From Octopus vulgaris (lineage: Eukaryota), in the NCBI GenBank assembly GCA_951406725.2, contig OX597820.1, positions 94,488,001 through 94,552,000 of the forward strand: DNA of 64,000 bases, read 5' to 3'. Position numbers: made by a program. Positions 39,040 through 45,500 of the stretch are shown here, in pieces; position 1 is the stretch's first letter, and each line of letters opens with the position of its first letter.

Positions 39040-41829
39040 GCAACGACAACACTACAACTACCACCATAACCAGTAGCATCATCACTATCATCATTATTAT
39101 CGTCAACATCAGCTTCATCATCGGGTCATCGAGGTCATACTGAGACAGGGGTATTTCTCAGGATAGCAGATAGACACAGTCGTATAAGGAATTGCCCGAA
39201 CAAAATTGCAAAACTTTAAGAATTCTGGCGCAAAGCATCTATTAGATCAATGAAAAAAATAACGCATTAAATTATTCGCATAAAATTACGTGCACTTTCT
39301 TGCCGCTTAATATACCGCGCTTAGTTCACTCTGTAAATGAATTACCTAAAAAAATATCTACCGTAAGTGGACTTTAAAGAACTCAAAGCATTCACAGAGA
39401 ATATTTCTCAATATTCTTCAACCTTGCTAAAACTAAGAAATTCCATGAAATTAGACCTTTCTAAGGATGAATATATTGCTTTTTATTTGTTAACTACTGT
39501 GTCAATAATTTTTTCTGAGTTTCTTTTTTTTTTTTTTTGTATTACTGAATCAATATATTTTCCGTCAAAGGCGGCGAGCTGGCAGAGTCGTTAGCATGCC
39601 GGGCGAAATGCGTAGCCGTATTTCGTCTGCCGTTACGTTCTGAGTTCAAATTCCGCCGAGGTCAACTTTGCCTGAAAGGAGTAAAACATATGCTAATTTT
39701 TAACGTGGAACGTAGCTGATAGACTTCAATACTGCAAGCATTTCTGAAATATGAATCATACTAAGATTAGAATAGCTGTATGAAGGGCTTAAAGACATAA
39801 ATCCTGAAATCGCTCAGAACATTCCAGTCCTCCGTGTCACAACTACAACTTTGATCTTTATGAGCCCCAATGCTGTTCACTGTTCACCAATGCATCAAGC
39901 TGTTCCCGACAAAAAAGGAGACATAAAATCCCCAATGTTGACCCCGAACGCCCTGAATATATGAAACGAAAATCATAATACGCACATTGAGTACTTTTCC
40001 AGTTAATGTTTTGGATCTCTTATGTATCACTATACATAAAAACACGCATATACATACTCAAATAGGCGCAGGAGTGTCTGTGTGGTAAGTAGCTTGTTTA
40101 CCAACCACATGGTTCCGGGTTCAGTCCCACTGCGTGGCACCTTGGGCAAGTGTCTTCTACTATAGCCTCGGGCCGACCAAAGCCTTGTGAGTGGATTTGG
40201 TAAACGGAAACTGAAAGACACTCATCGTATATATGTATATATATATGTGTGTGTCTGTGTGTTTGTGTGTTTGTGTGTCTGTGTTTGTCCCCTAGCATTG
40301 CTTGACAACCGATGCTGGTGTGTTTGTGTCCCCGTTACTTAGCAGTTCGGCAAAAGAGACCGATAGAATAAGTACTGGGCTTACAAAGAATAAGTCCCGG
40401 GGTCGATTTGCTCGACTAAAGGCGGTGCTCCAGCATGGCCGCAGTCAAATGACTGAAACAAGTAAAAGAGTAAAAGAGTAAAGAGTAAAGAGTAAATACA
40501 TATGCATACATATATTCCTACACACATATATATGCATACATACATGAATGAATGTATGTATGTATAATACAATGTTCCACATAAACACTGAACAGTTTGC
40601 TTAGCACCAAATATAAACTAAACACGGATATTCGAAACTAAAGGATATCTAAATATATGTTAATATAAAATGACACTTAAATACAACTGTTCAAATGAAT
40701 AAATATTTATTGTTGTTTTCCCCATGGTATTTTTGAGCTTAGCAAGTCAAGGAGTGCTTACTTCTCACACCTCACACGTATGTATTCCGTCATTTGCAAT
40801 AAGTTTCAATTTCGTGTATAGATTTAACATCGATAAACACAGATTGCAATTGCTATTATCGCTTGATTTTTATTTGTGAGAAGAGAGCCTGGCTTATTGG
40901 ATTAAATTTTGATAAAGCAATTCAAAATATATGTAGTGATTGAATCGTCTCCTATACCTACTCTAAAACCTTGTAATATTGTGTTACTGCTCCTTATATC
41001 ATACTATGTTATTGTTGGAATTTCTATTGAAAACTAGTTTAGTTTGTTGCAGCATTTAGATGGTTTTTATATAATATATCGAGAAGTTTTCGCATTTTCT
41101 ATCACCTATTTGAAACGTTTCGCCAAACTTTGGGGGGTAACTTTAACAGAGTCCACCCTGTTGTAATCATTCAGAACTGGTCTCTGGCATAAAGAGCTCT
41201 CTTCCTTTCTTTACACCAGTCTCAGGAGTCTTGAAAACAATCTTGGCAATTGTACTTCTTCAGGAGACTAAACCAAAATAAAAGAAAACTTCAGAAAAAG
41301 TTTGTGATGGAGCGAGGAAGAGGGGAATTCTGACATTTAGAAACTTTAGAAAATATGAATTTTCTGTTTAATTCCGAAATGGAATCGGCAGCTTATATTT
41401 GCTGCCGATAAATTTGGCGCGAGTACGATGATTTGAAAATTTTTAGGTTAGATATAGTCGAGGCAGTAGTGGTGCTGCCTCGTGAAAATATCTCTCCCGT
41501 CTGGCCTACTTTACTGATGAATCTGTTGGCTTATGGAAGATTAGCTTGATTTAATTTAATCAGGCTGATTTACCATTAAAAAATAGATGAAACGATGCAT
41601 TGTATAAAGTATAACAGGGTAAATGTTTTTTAAAATTTTCTCCTGGTTTACGGAATTAATACTTTTTTGCGGTTGAAGCCTTGGCTGCTATTTCTAGTGG
41701 GTTGAACGGCCTATTATGGCCGTTCCTTAATTTTGCTGTTGAATTTATTAATAGTCTCTGACTATTTCCTTTTTCCCACTAGACCGCCGGTGGCAAATAA
41801 TTTCTGAATTTTTTGCTACCCTATATTGA

Positions 41830-41888
<59 letters not shown>

Positions 41889-42473
41889 CAATGTATATAT
41901 ATGTATATTATACACATATATACGTACATATGTTTCATTACTGAAAATCCTTCTCTTATTCCTTTAGTAACATAATTTTCTTGCGACACATTGTGACGTA
42001 GCTAAGCAAGAAACATTAATAAATAAATAAAACCAGTCATATATTAATCCTACGAAAACAAACGGCTTTCTGAATCACGATAACTGATATTAATTGAAAC
42101 AGCATGTTAGAACCTATTTCTTATAAGCAAAGACTCAAGCAAAGCTCAGTGGTTAGAGCAGCGGGCTCACAATCAAGAAGTAGTGAGTTCGAATCTCGTC
42201 TGGGCTGTGAGTTGTGTTCTTGACACTTTTTTTCACGTTGCACCAGTTCACTGAGCTGTAGAAATGAGTTGCGACGTCACAGGTGTCAAGCTGTATCGGC
42301 CTTTGCCTTTCCCTTGGATAACATCGGTGGCGTGGAGAGGGTAGGCAGGTATGCATGGGCGACTGTTGGTCTTTCATAAACAATCTTGCTTGGACTTGTG
42401 CCTCGGATGGTGGTGGTGGGAACTTTCTAAGTGCACACCCATGGTCATCTATGACCGAAGGGGATCTTTATGC

Positions 42474-42523
<50 letters not shown>

Positions 42524-45500
42524 ATAAAATGCCAAAGTGCTCAATACGCATTTGTAGCAAGTCATCTACCTTGTCCAGTCGCGACCCTTTAAACTAAAGG
42601 CGAATATCTATTTGATAAACGTAAACCGACTTGAAGCCAGAAGGCGATGTTTCAGCATAATCGCAGTCCAAAACTGAAACAAGTAAAAATATGTATAAGT
42701 GCACAATACAGAAGATTGGATAAGGAAATAGTTGAGGTAAGGTAGAGAAAAGGCAGTGCATTAAAGAGAGATTTAAAGAAAAGAGCAAGGAATTTTAGGG
42801 AACCAATTTAGAAATACATTAAAGAAAGATCTAGGCATACATCATTTCGAATTAGAAGGAAAATCCTTCATTGCTACTAAATGCACCTTATTCTTATAAT
42901 CGTGGTACCAAGTATAGAGATTAATAGCTTCACATAAGATCTGGGGTGTAAGTCGATACAACTGACCAAAAATTGGTCCACAGGAAAATTTGAAGTATAG
43001 AGATGCTGGATCATGTATTTGAAGAATCCCCAGGTGCTATTTCAAGCATCAAAGAGGTTTTACCAGGTTCGGTCATGCTGTTTTGATTATATACTGCACA
43101 TAGCAATATAGTTATTGTTTAACACCAGATCAGCCATAATCAAACAGCCCTCTGTTCAAAGACATTCAAATCATGACTATTCCATCTTTCGTTTCTGTAT
43201 CTTGAAATAAATCATCTAATGAGTGTTCTTCGATTTTTAAGACGGTTGTGTGATGTGGGCAAAATTTGTTCGTTATTTTTAGCAGATGTTGAAGAATAAC
43301 GTACAGCTGTTACTGTTCAGATCCAAGTTAGCCCAGATTGATCAAAAGTCATTCCAGCTATGACCATCCATCATTTCAAAGATTATTATATCTAGAACTA
43401 CATCATTATTCAATGTGTCCTTTGTTAAAACGTTTGGGCAAGGGTCAGAAACATCAGTTTCCTTACTGCTCATTGCAATATTCTCCTTTTCACTTACCGA
43501 ACACTTTGAACTCTGCTGTGTTTAAATTCACACTTATGTGCATGTGTATATGCGTACATATGGTCGAACATATATGAAAACATTTACTTGATCATTTTAA
43601 CTATCTACCTTTTTCATTGTCTCCCACTGTTTTTGCTTTGCCTTTCTTACTAATTTATTTTTAGCGACAACCCACCTCCTACTGATAATATTATTCCTTT
43701 TCATTGTCTATTAATAGTCATCCATCAATATTTATTAACCTTTCTAAAATTCATATTTTCTAAAGTTTCTAAATGTCAGAATTCCCCTCTTCCTCGCTCC
43801 ATCACAAACTTTTTCTGAAGTTTTCTTTTATTTTGGTTTAGTCTCCTGAAGAAGTACAATTGCCAAGATTGTTTTCAAGACTCCTGAGACTGGTGTAAAG
43901 AAAGGAAGAGAGCTCTTTATGCCAGAGACCAGTTCTGAATGATTACAACAGGGTGGACTCTGTTAAAGTTACCCCCCAAAGTTTGGCGAAACGTTTCAAA
44001 TAGGTGATAGAAAATGCGAAAACTTCTCGATATATTATATAAAAACCATCTAAATGCTGCAACAAACTAAACTAGTTTTCAATAGAAATTCCAACAATAA
44101 CATAGTATGATATAAGGAGCAGTAACACAATATTACAAGGTTTTAGAGTAGGTATAGGAGACGATTCAATCACTACATATATTTTGAATTGCTTTATCAA
44201 AATTTAATCCAATAAGCCAGGCTCTCTTCTCACAAATAAAAATCAAGCGATAATAGCAATTGCAATCTGTGTTTATCGATGTTAAATCTATACACGAAAT
44301 TGAAACTTATTGCAAATGACGGAATACATACGTGTGAGGTGTGAGAAGTAAGCACTCCTTGACTTGCTAAGCTCAAAAATACCATGGGGAAAACAACAAT
44401 AAATATTTATTCATTTGAACAGTTGTATTTAAGTGTCATTTTATATTAACATATATTTAGATATCCTTTAGTTTCGAATATCCGTGTTTAGTTTATATTT
44501 GGTGCTAAGCAAACTGTTCAGTGTTTATGTGGAACATTGTATTATACATACATACATTCATTCATGTATGTATGCATATATATGTGTGTAGGAATATATG
44601 TATGCATATGTATTTACTCTTTACTCTTTACTCTTTTACTCTTTTACTTGTTTCAGTCATTTGACTGCGGCCATGCTGGAGCACCGCCTTTAGTCGTGCA
44701 AATTGACCCCGGGACTTATTCTTTGTAAGCCCAGTACTTATTCTATCGGTCTCTTTTGCCGAACTGCTAAGTAACGGGGACACAAACACACCAGCATCGG
44801 TTGTCAAGCAATGCTAGGGGAAAAACACAGACACACAAGCACACAGACACACACATATATATATACATATATACGATGAGTGTCTTTCAGTTTCCGTTTA
44901 CCAAATCCACTCACAAGGCTTTGGTCGGCCCGAGGCTATAGTAGAAGACACTTGCCCAAGGTGCCACGCAGTGGGACTGAACCCGGAACCATGTGGTTGG
45001 TAAACAAGCTACTTACCACGCAGACACTCCTGCGCCTATTTGAGTATGTATATGCGTGTTTTTATGTATAGTGATACATAAAGAGATCCAAAACATTAAC
45101 TGGAAAATTACTCAAAGTGCATATTATGCTTTTCGTTTCATATATTCAGGGCGTTCGGGTTAGCATAAAATACAAATTGACTATTTGTTTATTTTTTGTT
45201 TTATTTTATTTTATATTAAACTCATTTATTCTTTTATTCTTTTACTTGTTTCAGTCATTTGACTGCGACCATGCTGGAGCACCGCCTTTAGTCGAACAAA
45301 TCAATCCCAGGACTTATTCTTTGTAAATCTAGTACTTATTTTATCAGTGTCTTTTACTGAATCGCTAAATTTCGGGGACGTAAACACACTTTTCGTCTAC
45401 CAAATCCACTTACAAGCCTTTGGTCAGCCCGAGGTTGACACTTGCCCAAGGTGCCACGCAGTAGGACTGAACCCGAAACCATGCAGTTGGGAAACAAGTT

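What the first reader, a model, noticed from the sequence alone, without database searches (positions are those of the whole stretch)
40413..44696. Innermost 951 bp of the arms look identical while the rest has diverged
Seen by manual comparison: 40413-41363 and 43746-44696 show no mismatch or indel; the first differences are at 40412/44697 and 40405, and farther out differences are frequent. Inference: recent arm-to-arm gene conversion or crossover beside the spacer, or selection on this mostly non-TE segment.
Basis: partly seen in the sequence, partly recalled or inferred. Interest (0 to 1): 0.75.

Follow-up and report, generated by a model that had tools for sequence, protein, structure and literature searches.

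The report
Recent copy-correction beside a palindrome's spacer
The two arms of a large, roughly 2% diverged DNA palindrome are letter-for-letter identical for the 951 bases next to the central spacer, most likely because one arm was recently copied onto the other there, which is a known and fairly ordinary process.

Summary
Bases 40413-41363 are the exact reverse complement of 43746-44696 (951 bp). The first differences outward are at 40412/44697 and 40405/44704.

The tract is the innermost part of a palindrome. The arms are 22032-41363 and 43746-64000 (the right one cut by the window end), around an asymmetric 2382-bp spacer. Elsewhere the arms differ at 375 of 16582 aligned positions (2.3%): 310 substitutions (178 transitions, 132 transversions) and 65 indel events.

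- **Not chance:** a clean run of 951 or more appeared in 0 of 20000 shuffles. The next longest real run is 548 bp.
- **Not coding:** the tract holds a SINE tail, simple repeats and about 800 bp found once per arm in this window. It has no coding or RNA-family signal.
- **Best reading:** a recent arm-to-arm gene-conversion tract that stops at the spacer.
- **Rivals not excluded:** inward extension of the arms into former spacer, or an assembly artefact.
- **Poorly supported:** selection, and crossover on its own.

It is a new instance of a known kind, of modest interest. I do not take the window for human; it looks molluscan.

The parts
22032..41363 (+). Left arm of the palindrome, as far as its partner is visible. 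It may continue left of 22032, because the right arm is cut by the window end.
   Evidence: Minus-strand self-BLAST blocks pair 22032-41363 with 64000-43746 at 86.7-98.7% identity. MAFFT of the arms gives 16207 matches, 310 mismatches and 6553 gap columns.
41364..43745 (.). Asymmetric spacer of 2382 bp. It holds (TA)45 at 41835-41922, (ATCT)12 at 42474-42521 and a tRNA-like SINE-like element at about 42130-42690.
   Evidence: Homology between the arms stops sharply; the next 12 bases on the two sides are unrelated. The only internal inverted matches are in the TA microsatellite. 0 of 25 spacer ORFs of 45 aa or more match Pfam.
43746..64000 (-). Right arm of the palindrome; it runs off the window end.
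40413..41363 (+). Identical tract, left copy. It consists of the SINE 3' tail (40413-40487), a 7-8-nt tandem repeat and low-complexity stretch (40461-40566), and about 800 bp (40567-41363) with no other copy in the window.
   Evidence: Exact reverse-complement equality. The SINE alignment is A1, the tandem repeats are, and single-copy status within the window is.
43746..44696 (-). Identical tract, right copy.
40067..40487 (+). SINE copy shared by both arms (right copy about 44622-45032). The outer edge of the identical tract falls inside it, 75 bp from its 3' end.
   Evidence: It is 88-92% identical to the copies at 7859-8269 and 29226-29662 and aligned with them in A1. The two arm copies differ at 6 places in 40067-40412 and at none in 40413-40487.
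38862..39942 (+). 1080-bp segment present only in the left arm, 470 bp outside the identical tract.
   Evidence: A gap of 1080 columns in the right arm. The sequence is and includes a tRNA-like SINE head.
54493..57424 (.). Segment of about 2.9 kb present only in the right arm, with a reverse-transcriptase fragment at 55930-56211 (-).
   Evidence: A gap of 2934 columns in the left arm. RVT_1 scores 29.0 bits against a cut-off of 29.6. The Atlas neighbours are RVT_1 clusters.
26680..27227 (+). Second-longest identical run (548 bp, partner 58601-59148). It may be an older or shorter conversion tract.
   Evidence: A run of 548 or more occurred in 20 of 20000 shuffles. The HMM did not call it.

Best explanation
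The window holds a large inverted segmental duplication (a palindrome). Its arms are at least 19 kb long and surround a 2.4-kb spacer in non-coding, transposon-rich DNA of what looks like a mollusc.

The arms have been diverging for a long time, at about 2.3% of aligned positions, and each has acquired transposon-sized insertions of its own. Much more recently, the innermost 951 bp or more of one arm was overwritten with the sequence of the other by non-reciprocal homologous repair (arm-to-arm gene conversion).

The likely course is as follows. A break or stalled fork in one inner arm was repaired within the same chromatid, or from the sister chromatid, with the inverted partner arm as template. 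The copied tract ran inward until homology ended at the spacer, and outward to between 40412 and 40413.

Shown: the palindrome, the exact identity, the sharp step in divergence, and the improbability of chance. Inferred: that the arms already reached the spacer before the event, the repair pathway, and which arm was donor.
For: - The two stretches are exactly identical over 951 bp.
- The tract is flanked by divergence of 11 and 9 differences per 500 columns.
- 0 of 20000 shuffles reached 951. P of no substitution is 3e-8 to 7e-6 after composition adjustment, and 8e-4 to 3e-5 under an overdispersed model.
- The HMM singles out this tract alone.
- The arms are truly diverged paralogues, not noisy copies. 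There are 310 substitutions against 65 indel events, and 178 transitions against 132 transversions. There are 13 indels of 50 bp or more, which include an arm-specific SINE and a reverse-transcriptase-bearing insert.
- The identity covers a SINE tail that varies among the four copies in the window, and it covers tandem repeats. That points to recency, not constraint.
- The tract length fits published values. In human Y palindrome P6 the mean minimum tract is 2068 bp, and conversions far outnumber inversions (PMC3723533, abstract and passages).
- By my own arithmetic, the 95% upper bound on divergence in the tract is 3/951 = 0.32%, at most about a seventh of the arm average.
Against: - No outgroup, second individual or read data were available. 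It is therefore not shown that the two copies ever differed inside the tract.
- The tract abuts the spacer. For a tract placed at random along the arm, I put the chance of that at about 5-11%. This mildly favours a mechanism tied to the boundary, such as arm extension or a centre-proximal hot spot.
- Beyond the tract there is no gradient of divergence with distance from the spacer (Spearman -0.01, p = 0.94). Nothing indicates recurrent centre-initiated conversion.
- Divergence along the arms is overdispersed (variance/mean 4.4), so the simple Poisson P-values overstate the case.
- GC bias could not be tested. The tract is, if anything, AT-rich (32.8% GC against 36.4% in the rest of the left arm).
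Confidence: 0.6

Rival explanations
1. Inward extension of the arms. The 951 bp used to be single-copy spacer on one side. A break near the other arm's inner end was repaired by priming on the partner arm and copying on past the old arm/spacer boundary. The end was then joined back, so the palindrome grew by 951 bp and the spacer shrank. The old boundary would be at 40412/44697.
For: The identical segment is exactly the innermost piece and ends at the spacer, which this model predicts and a randomly placed conversion tract gives only about 5-11% of the time. Divergence is at the background level right up to the outer edge, with differences at 40412 and 40405. Palindrome centres are known to be rearrangement-prone: in 7 of 12 primate X palindromes the spacer is not orthologous between human and macaque (PMC8327919, passages). 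Boundary shifts of inverted repeats by gene conversion or double-strand-break repair are the accepted model for plastid inverted repeats (Goulding et al. as quoted in PMC2275221, passages).
Against: It needs the original duplication breakpoint to lie inside a SINE that is now seamless across 40412 in both arms. That is possible, but it is an extra coincidence. It also needs a repair event completed by end joining, which is rarer than plain conversion between existing homologues (established knowledge, not tested). Nothing in the window separates it from the main explanation.
Confidence: 0.2
2. Assembly or polishing artefact. The two copies really differ, and consensus building homogenised them; or the whole palindrome is a false inverted duplication of two haplotypes or a fold-back chimera.
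For: Heterozygous invertebrate genomes are prone to false duplications. I saw only search listings for that literature.
Against: - A fold-back chimera would give a palindrome with no spacer or a symmetric centre. Here the 2382-bp spacer is asymmetric, and its only internal inverted matches are in a TA microsatellite.
- The arm differences are mainly substitutions with a transition excess, not indel noise.
- Mis-mapping of reads between the arms should be least likely next to the unique spacer, which anchors them. Polishing collapse therefore predicts homogenisation away from the spacer, not beside it (inference).
- There is no N anywhere in the window.
Confidence: 0.1
3. Constraint or a locally low mutation rate. 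The 951 bp is functional (regulatory, RNA or exon) in both copies, or it simply mutates slowly, so no difference has accumulated since the duplication.
For: About 800 bp of the tract is single-copy in the window apart from its partner. The tract has fewer CpG sites than the rest of the arm (16.8 against 24.2 per kb).
Against: - After allowing for composition and CpG content, 12-17 substitutions are still expected.
- The identity includes a SINE tail and tandem repeats.
- 0 of 13 ORFs of 45 aa or more in the two copies match Pfam.
- No Rfam family reaches its gathering score. The sub-threshold matches are miRNA models on low-complexity repeats, at 22-33 bits against cut-offs of 49-100.
- Constraint rarely gives complete identity over 951 consecutive bases (established knowledge).
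Confidence: 0.04
4. Chance: simply the longest gap between differences.
For: Rates along the arms are heterogeneous (variance/mean 4.4). With a background as low as 0.8%, the chance of some run of 951 or more rises to about 6%.
Against: 0 of 20000 shuffles at the observed rate reached 951. The overdispersed model gives 8e-4 or less. No pair of adjacent 500-column bins (1 kb) elsewhere has fewer than 11 differences.
Confidence: 0.01

Closest known systems
Arm-to-arm gene conversion in primate Y-chromosome palindromes (P1-P8; studied in detail for P6)
   Same: There are inverted arms around a unique spacer, and non-reciprocal copying between the arms produces stretches of identity. Tracts are of kilobase scale (mean minimum 2068 bp) and crossovers are rare (PMC3723533, abstract and passages; PMC8600007, abstract and passages).
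   Different: Those arms are more than 99.9% identical throughout and carry testis gene families. Here the aligned identity is about 97.7%, there are 13 indels of 50 bp or more, and no gene was detected. Conversion here is therefore sporadic and not sustained. The host looks like a mollusc, and which chromosome the window comes from is unknown.
Primate X-chromosome palindromes with instability around the centre of symmetry
   Same: Rearrangements concentrate in the spacers and inner arms (PMC8327919, passages). This matches the idea that the region next to the spacer is where events happen.
   Different: Those events are deletions, inversions and spacer replacement in arms that are at least 99% identical. 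Here the event restored identity and did not remove sequence.
[quoted passage not shown]
   Same: The boundary between an inverted repeat and single-copy DNA moves by gene conversion or double-strand-break repair, leaving newly duplicated, identical sequence at the boundary (Goulding et al. as quoted in PMC2275221, passages).
   Different: Those are organelle genomes with continuous copy correction of the whole repeat. Here the context is nuclear, the arms are diverged, and whether the boundary moved at all is untested.
Diverged, non-coding palindromic segmental duplications (mouse chromosome 12 SD12A1)
   Same: The arms are made of non-coding or fragmentary sequence with low overall identity. 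A few blocks of much higher identity are read there as more recent local events (PMC13688818, abstract and passages).
   Different: That locus is megabase-sized, about 93% identical, and was reported to show no evidence of ongoing conversion. Here a single, perfectly identical tract lies against the spacer.
Actively maintained inverted repeats in Caenorhabditis intergenic regions
   Same: Inverted repeats with short spacers are kept similar within a species, with gene conversion proposed as the cause (PMC1803023, passages).
   Different: Those arms are 0.1-2 kb long and flank paralogous genes. No genes are seen here.

Membership tests
Arm-to-arm gene-conversion tract in a palindrome | Two paralogous arms in inverted orientation around a spacer | tested here: met
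   The arms are 22032-41363 and 43746-64000; the spacer is 41364-43745.
Arm-to-arm gene-conversion tract in a palindrome | A run of identity significantly longer than the surrounding divergence allows (runs test) | tested here: met
   The run is 951 bp. 0 of 20000 shuffles reached that length. P is 3e-8 to 7e-6 after composition adjustment and 8e-4 or less when overdispersion is allowed for.
Arm-to-arm gene-conversion tract in a palindrome | A sharp return to background divergence at the tract edge | tested here: met
   There are differences at 40412 and 40405, then 11 per 500 columns. The HMM boundary falls at 40413.
Arm-to-arm gene-conversion tract in a palindrome | Evidence that the converted sites differed before the event (outgroup, or paralogous variants segregating in a population) | not testable with these tools
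   The tools hold no collection of eukaryotic genomes or reads. The genome-contig collection is bacterial and archaeal, and I did not scan it.
Arm-to-arm gene-conversion tract in a palindrome | GC-biased direction of change | not testable with these tools
   There are no differences left in the tract and no outgroup to polarise them. The tract is 32.8% GC.
Actively homogenised sex-chromosome-type palindrome (as annotated in PMC8327919: arms at least 8 kb, at least 99% identity) | Arm length of at least 8 kb | tested here: met
   At least 19.3 kb is visible.
Actively homogenised sex-chromosome-type palindrome (as annotated in PMC8327919: arms at least 8 kb, at least 99% identity) | Arm-to-arm identity of at least 99% | tested here: not met
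   There are 375 differences in 16582 aligned positions, so identity is 97.7%. BLAST blocks range from 86.7 to 98.7%. 13 indels are 50 bp or longer.
Actively homogenised sex-chromosome-type palindrome (as annotated in PMC8327919: arms at least 8 kb, at least 99% identity) | Protein-coding gene families in the arms | tested here: not met
   I scanned 150 ORFs. None scored above its curated Pfam cut-off. One sat exactly on it (DUF4604, 28.0 against 28), over 28 residues of a 3-nt-periodic repeat, which I read as low complexity. This is a weak test, because spliced exons shorter than 90 aa outside 39900-45200 were not scanned.
Inverted-repeat boundary shift (arm extension into the spacer) | The youngest, identical segment lies at the boundary between repeat and single-copy DNA | tested here: met
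   The tract ends at 41363/43746, which are the spacer boundaries.
Inverted-repeat boundary shift (arm extension into the spacer) | A relative or allele that keeps the older boundary | not testable with these tools
   No orthologous sequence is available.
False inverted duplication or fold-back chimera of an assembly | No spacer or a symmetric centre, with differences dominated by indel-type sequencing errors | tested here: not met
   The spacer is asymmetric and 2382 bp long. There are 310 substitutions against 65 indel events, and 178 transitions against 132 transversions.
False inverted duplication or fold-back chimera of an assembly | Halved read depth on the arms, or no reads that span the junctions | not testable with these tools
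   No reads were available.

The most novel reading that the evidence does not exclude
The perfect 951-bp stem next to the 2.4-kb loop is not a passing accident of repair. The palindrome centre would be transcribed as a long hairpin RNA, serving as a source of small RNAs or a substrate for RNA editing, both plausible in a cephalopod-like host. Conversion events that restore a perfect duplex beside the loop would then be favoured. A less bold version is that the spacer boundary is a recombination hot spot where the palindrome is caught growing inward. I put that version at about 0.2 (see the arm-extension rival).
Probability: 0.03. Interest if true: 0.6.

Novelty: new member of a known kind. 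Interest (0 to 1): 0.25.

Why it matters
If the reading is right, a diverged, gene-less palindrome outside the well-studied mammalian sex chromosomes still undergoes occasional arm-to-arm copying. The footprint is unusually clean: one edge is fixed by the spacer, and the other is resolved to a single base between two informative sites. That makes the locus a convenient natural marker. It could be used to measure tract length, donor direction and the conversion-to-inversion ratio in this organism, and to ask whether palindrome centres attract repair events.

It changes no current view. It does not bear on gene content or phenotype as far as can be seen here.

Tried and rejected
- **Coding function.** I scanned 150 ORFs against Pfam (105, 45). 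These were all ORFs of 90 aa or more in the window plus all of 45 aa or more in 39900-45200. Nothing credible turned up in the tract or spacer. The only meaningful hit is a reverse-transcriptase fragment in a right-arm-only insert.
- **RNA families.** There were 0 matches at gathering score over the whole window. The 22 sub-threshold matches in 39900-45200 are 21 to miRNA models that sit on simple repeats, plus one weak scaRNA-model match.
- **tRNA genes.** ARAGORN found 0.
- **Transposon hallmarks inside the tract.** There are no terminal repeats of note, only short chance-level pairs.
- **A gradient of divergence away from the spacer.** There is none beyond the tract.
- **Naming the organism.** A paper search with a 23-base stretch of the SINE gave 0 papers. 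A protein search with a SINE-derived ORF gave 1 unnamed 98-aa hit, which I did not use further. The Atlas neighbours of the reverse-transcriptase ORF include one cluster whose few recorded members are mostly Mollusca. That the SINE is the abundant octopus SINE is my recollection, not a tool result.
- **The 348-aa ORF at 779-1822.** It is low-complexity sequence.
- **Literature on cephalopod palindromes.** One paper holds all three terms, and it is about rotifers. A search on octopus, SINE and inverted repeat gave nothing relevant; I saw the listing only.
- **Not checked.**
  - I could not look for orthologous loci, because no eukaryotic genome collection is offered.
  - I did not use genome contigs, search_dna_similar or the structure tools, because they hold no relevant sequence.
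  - I opened no supplementary files.

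
Full report
**What is there.** The window is AT-rich eukaryotic DNA (28-41% GC in 2-kb steps) with no N. A minus-strand self-comparison shows one large palindrome. 22032-41363 pairs with 64000-43746 in eleven collinear blocks of 86.7-98.7% identity, around a 2382-bp spacer at 41364-43745. The right arm runs off the window, so the arms are at least 19.3 kb long. A global MAFFT alignment of the arms has 16207 matching columns, 310 mismatches and 6553 gap columns. The gap columns fall into 65 indel events, 13 of them 50 bp or longer.

**The observation.** 40413-41363 is the exact reverse complement of 43746-44696 over 951 of 951 bases. It is the longest identical run in the arms; the next are 548, 330 and 274 bp. 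Outward, the first differences are at 40412/44697 and 40405/44704, then 40287, 40270 and an indel at 40256. Inward, homology stops dead: the next twelve bases on the two sides are unrelated.

**Is it more than chance?**
- Counting each indel as one event, the arms differ at 375 of 16582 aligned positions, or 2.26%. The BLAST blocks give about the same figure by my own addition.
- Placing 375 differences at random 20000 times gave a mean longest run of 284 and a maximum of 627. A run of 951 or more occurred in 0 of 20000, and of 548 or more in 20 of 20000.
- The tract is poorer in GC and CpG than the rest of the arm. Allowing for site class, 17.2 substitutions are expected, or 11.9 if only the neighbouring 3.6 kb serves as background. 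P of none is 3e-8 and 7e-6 respectively. The site classes are crude, since a site counts as G/C if either arm has G or C.
- Differences per 500 columns are overdispersed (variance/mean 4.4). A negative-binomial model fitted to the bins still gives 8e-4 if the whole tract shares one rate, and 3e-5 for two independent bins.
- Empirically, no pair of adjacent 500-column bins (1 kb) elsewhere has fewer than 11 differences, against 2 for the innermost 1 kb.
- A two-state HMM called 40413-41363, and nothing else, as a low-divergence segment under all three parameter sets tried.

**Are the arms real paralogues?** The differences are mainly substitutions (310 against 65 indel events), with 178 transitions and 132 transversions. 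That looks like evolutionary divergence, not read noise. Each arm has its own transposon-sized pieces:
- a SINE copy at 29226-29662 in the left arm only;
- 1080 bp at 38862-39942 in the left arm only;
- about 2.9 kb at 54493-57424 in the right arm only, holding a reverse-transcriptase fragment (RVT_1, 29.0 bits against a cut-off of 29.6; Atlas neighbours are RVT_1 clusters).

The spacer is asymmetric. Its only internal inverted matches are in a TA microsatellite. That argues against a fold-back chimera, which would have no spacer or a symmetric one (inference).

**What the tract is made of.**
- 40413-40487 is the 3' tail of a roughly 420-bp SINE at 40067-40487 that both arms share. Other copies lie at 7859-8269, 29226-29662 and, in part, 38500-38802.
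- 40461-40566 is a short tandem repeat followed by low-complexity sequence.
- 40567-41363 has no other copy in the window apart from its partner.
- Coding signal is absent. 0 of 7 ORFs of 45 aa or more in the left copy, 0 of 6 in the right copy and 0 of 25 in the spacer match Pfam.
- RNA-family signal is absent. No Rfam family reaches its gathering score in the window. The 22 sub-threshold matches around the centre are all but one to miRNA models lying on simple repeats, at 22-33 bits against cut-offs of 49-100; the other is a 16.6-bit scaRNA-model match against a cut-off of 65. ARAGORN finds no tRNA gene.
- I could not screen against a transposon library, so 'mostly non-TE' is confirmed only in the sense of single-copy within 64 kb.

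**Best explanation.** I favour a recent arm-to-arm gene conversion. One inner arm was repaired with the inverted partner as template, and the copied tract was bounded inward by the end of homology at the spacer and outward between 40412 and 40413.
- *Support.* The step from zero to background divergence is sharp. Fast-mutating repeats are included, as is a SINE tail that varies among its four copies in the window. The length is unremarkable for palindromes: in human Y palindrome P6 the mean minimum tract is 2068 bp and conversions greatly outnumber inversions (PMC3723533, abstract and passages).
- *Age.* By the rule of three (my arithmetic), divergence in the tract is below 0.32% at 95% confidence. 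The event is therefore at most about one seventh as old as the average arm divergence.
- *Crossover.* A reciprocal crossover alone cannot give identity. It inverts the segment between the exchange points and leaves the differences in place (inference).

**Rivals.**
- *Arm extension.* The 951 bp may once have been spacer on one side and been copied across in a break repair that ran past the old boundary. The position of the tract favours this a little. A randomly placed tract of 1-2 kb would touch the inner end only about 5-11% of the time. Palindrome centres are known rearrangement sites (PMC8327919, passages). Boundary shifts of this kind are the textbook account of plastid inverted repeats (PMC2275221, passages). 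The window cannot separate this from plain conversion; I give it 0.2.
- *Assembly or polishing artefact.* I cannot exclude it without reads. However, read mis-assignment between the arms should be rarest next to the unique spacer, so collapse would be expected farther out (inference). I give it 0.1.
- *Constraint or slow mutation.* This is poorly supported for the reasons given above (0.04).
- *Chance.* This is negligible (0.01).

**Evidence against my own reading.**
- Nothing shows that the two copies ever differed in the tract.
- There is no gradient of divergence with distance from the spacer beyond the tract (Spearman -0.01, p = 0.94). The next 3.5 kb is somewhat less diverged than the remainder (60 of 3500 against 310 of 12000, binomial p = 0.003), but that comparison ignores the overdispersion.
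- GC bias could not be tested.
- The second clean run of 548 bp is significant only under the homogeneous model.

**Comparison with what is known.**
- The process is that of arm-to-arm conversion in the primate Y and X palindromes (PMC8600007, PMC3723533, PMC8327919).
- The locus is not a member of that class as usually annotated. Arm length passes, but identity is 97.7% against the 99% required, and no gene family was found.
- It is closer in kind to diverged, non-coding palindromic duplications such as mouse SD12A1, where isolated high-identity blocks are also read as later local events (PMC13688818, abstract and passages).
- A search for cephalopod, palindrome and gene conversion found one paper, which is unrelated. 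I therefore know of no description of this locus, although the library is not exhaustive.

**Host.** I do not take the window for human. The SINE has a tRNA-like head, an internal microsatellite and a conserved tail, and I recall it as the abundant octopus SINE; that is memory, not a tool result. The only tool hint is an Atlas cluster near the reverse-transcriptase ORF whose few recorded members are mostly Mollusca. A paper search with a 23-base stretch of the SINE and a protein search with a SINE-derived ORF gave nothing usable.

**Verdict.** This is a new instance of a known kind, with interest about 0.25. Reads and an orthologous locus would settle the remaining questions.

Noticed in passing
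26680-27227 and 58601-59148: This is the second-longest identical run between the arms (548 bp), and it ends at a TA-rich microsatellite. A run this long occurred in 20 of 20000 shuffles, but the HMM did not call it. It may be an older or shorter conversion tract.
   Followed up: partly
54493-57424: A segment of about 2.9 kb is present only in the right arm. It holds a reverse-transcriptase fragment at 55930-56211 (-) (RVT_1, 29.0 bits against a cut-off of 29.6; RVT_1 clusters in the Atlas, one with mostly molluscan members). It is probably a retroelement that inserted after the duplication.
   Followed up: partly
38862-39942: A 1080-bp segment is present only in the left arm, 470 bp outside the identical tract. 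It holds trinucleotide-type simple repeats and a tRNA-like SINE head at about 39565-39670. I did not decide whether it is an insertion in the left arm or a deletion in the right.
   Followed up: no
29226-29662: A SINE copy of the same family as the one at 40067-40487 is present in the left arm only, so the family was still active after the palindrome formed.
   Followed up: partly
40405 and 40412 (right arm 44704 and 44697): The two differences at the outer edge of the tract lie 7 bp apart. Both are derived on the right arm, because all 4 SINE copies in alignment A1 carry the left-arm base. Two changes this close are not significant; by my arithmetic the chance is about 15% at the background rate. 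They could still mark the edge of repair synthesis.
   Followed up: partly
33380-33526 and 49898-50053: Tandem repeats with 3-nt register shifts lie in the least similar part of the arms (86.7-93.8% identity). Their ORFs give hydrophobic low-complexity peptides with many sub-threshold Pfam matches. One match sits at its cut-off (DUF4604, 28.0 against 28).
   Followed up: no
41835-41922, 42474-42521 and about 42130-42690: The spacer carries (TA)45 and (ATCT)12 microsatellites. It also carries a second tRNA-like SINE-like element that shares only a tail of about 49 nt with the arm SINE.
   Followed up: no
776-1822: A strongly GC- and AT-skewed low-complexity block is open in several frames on both strands. 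The longest ORF (348 aa) is proline/serine/leucine-rich low-complexity sequence with no Pfam match.
   Followed up: partly
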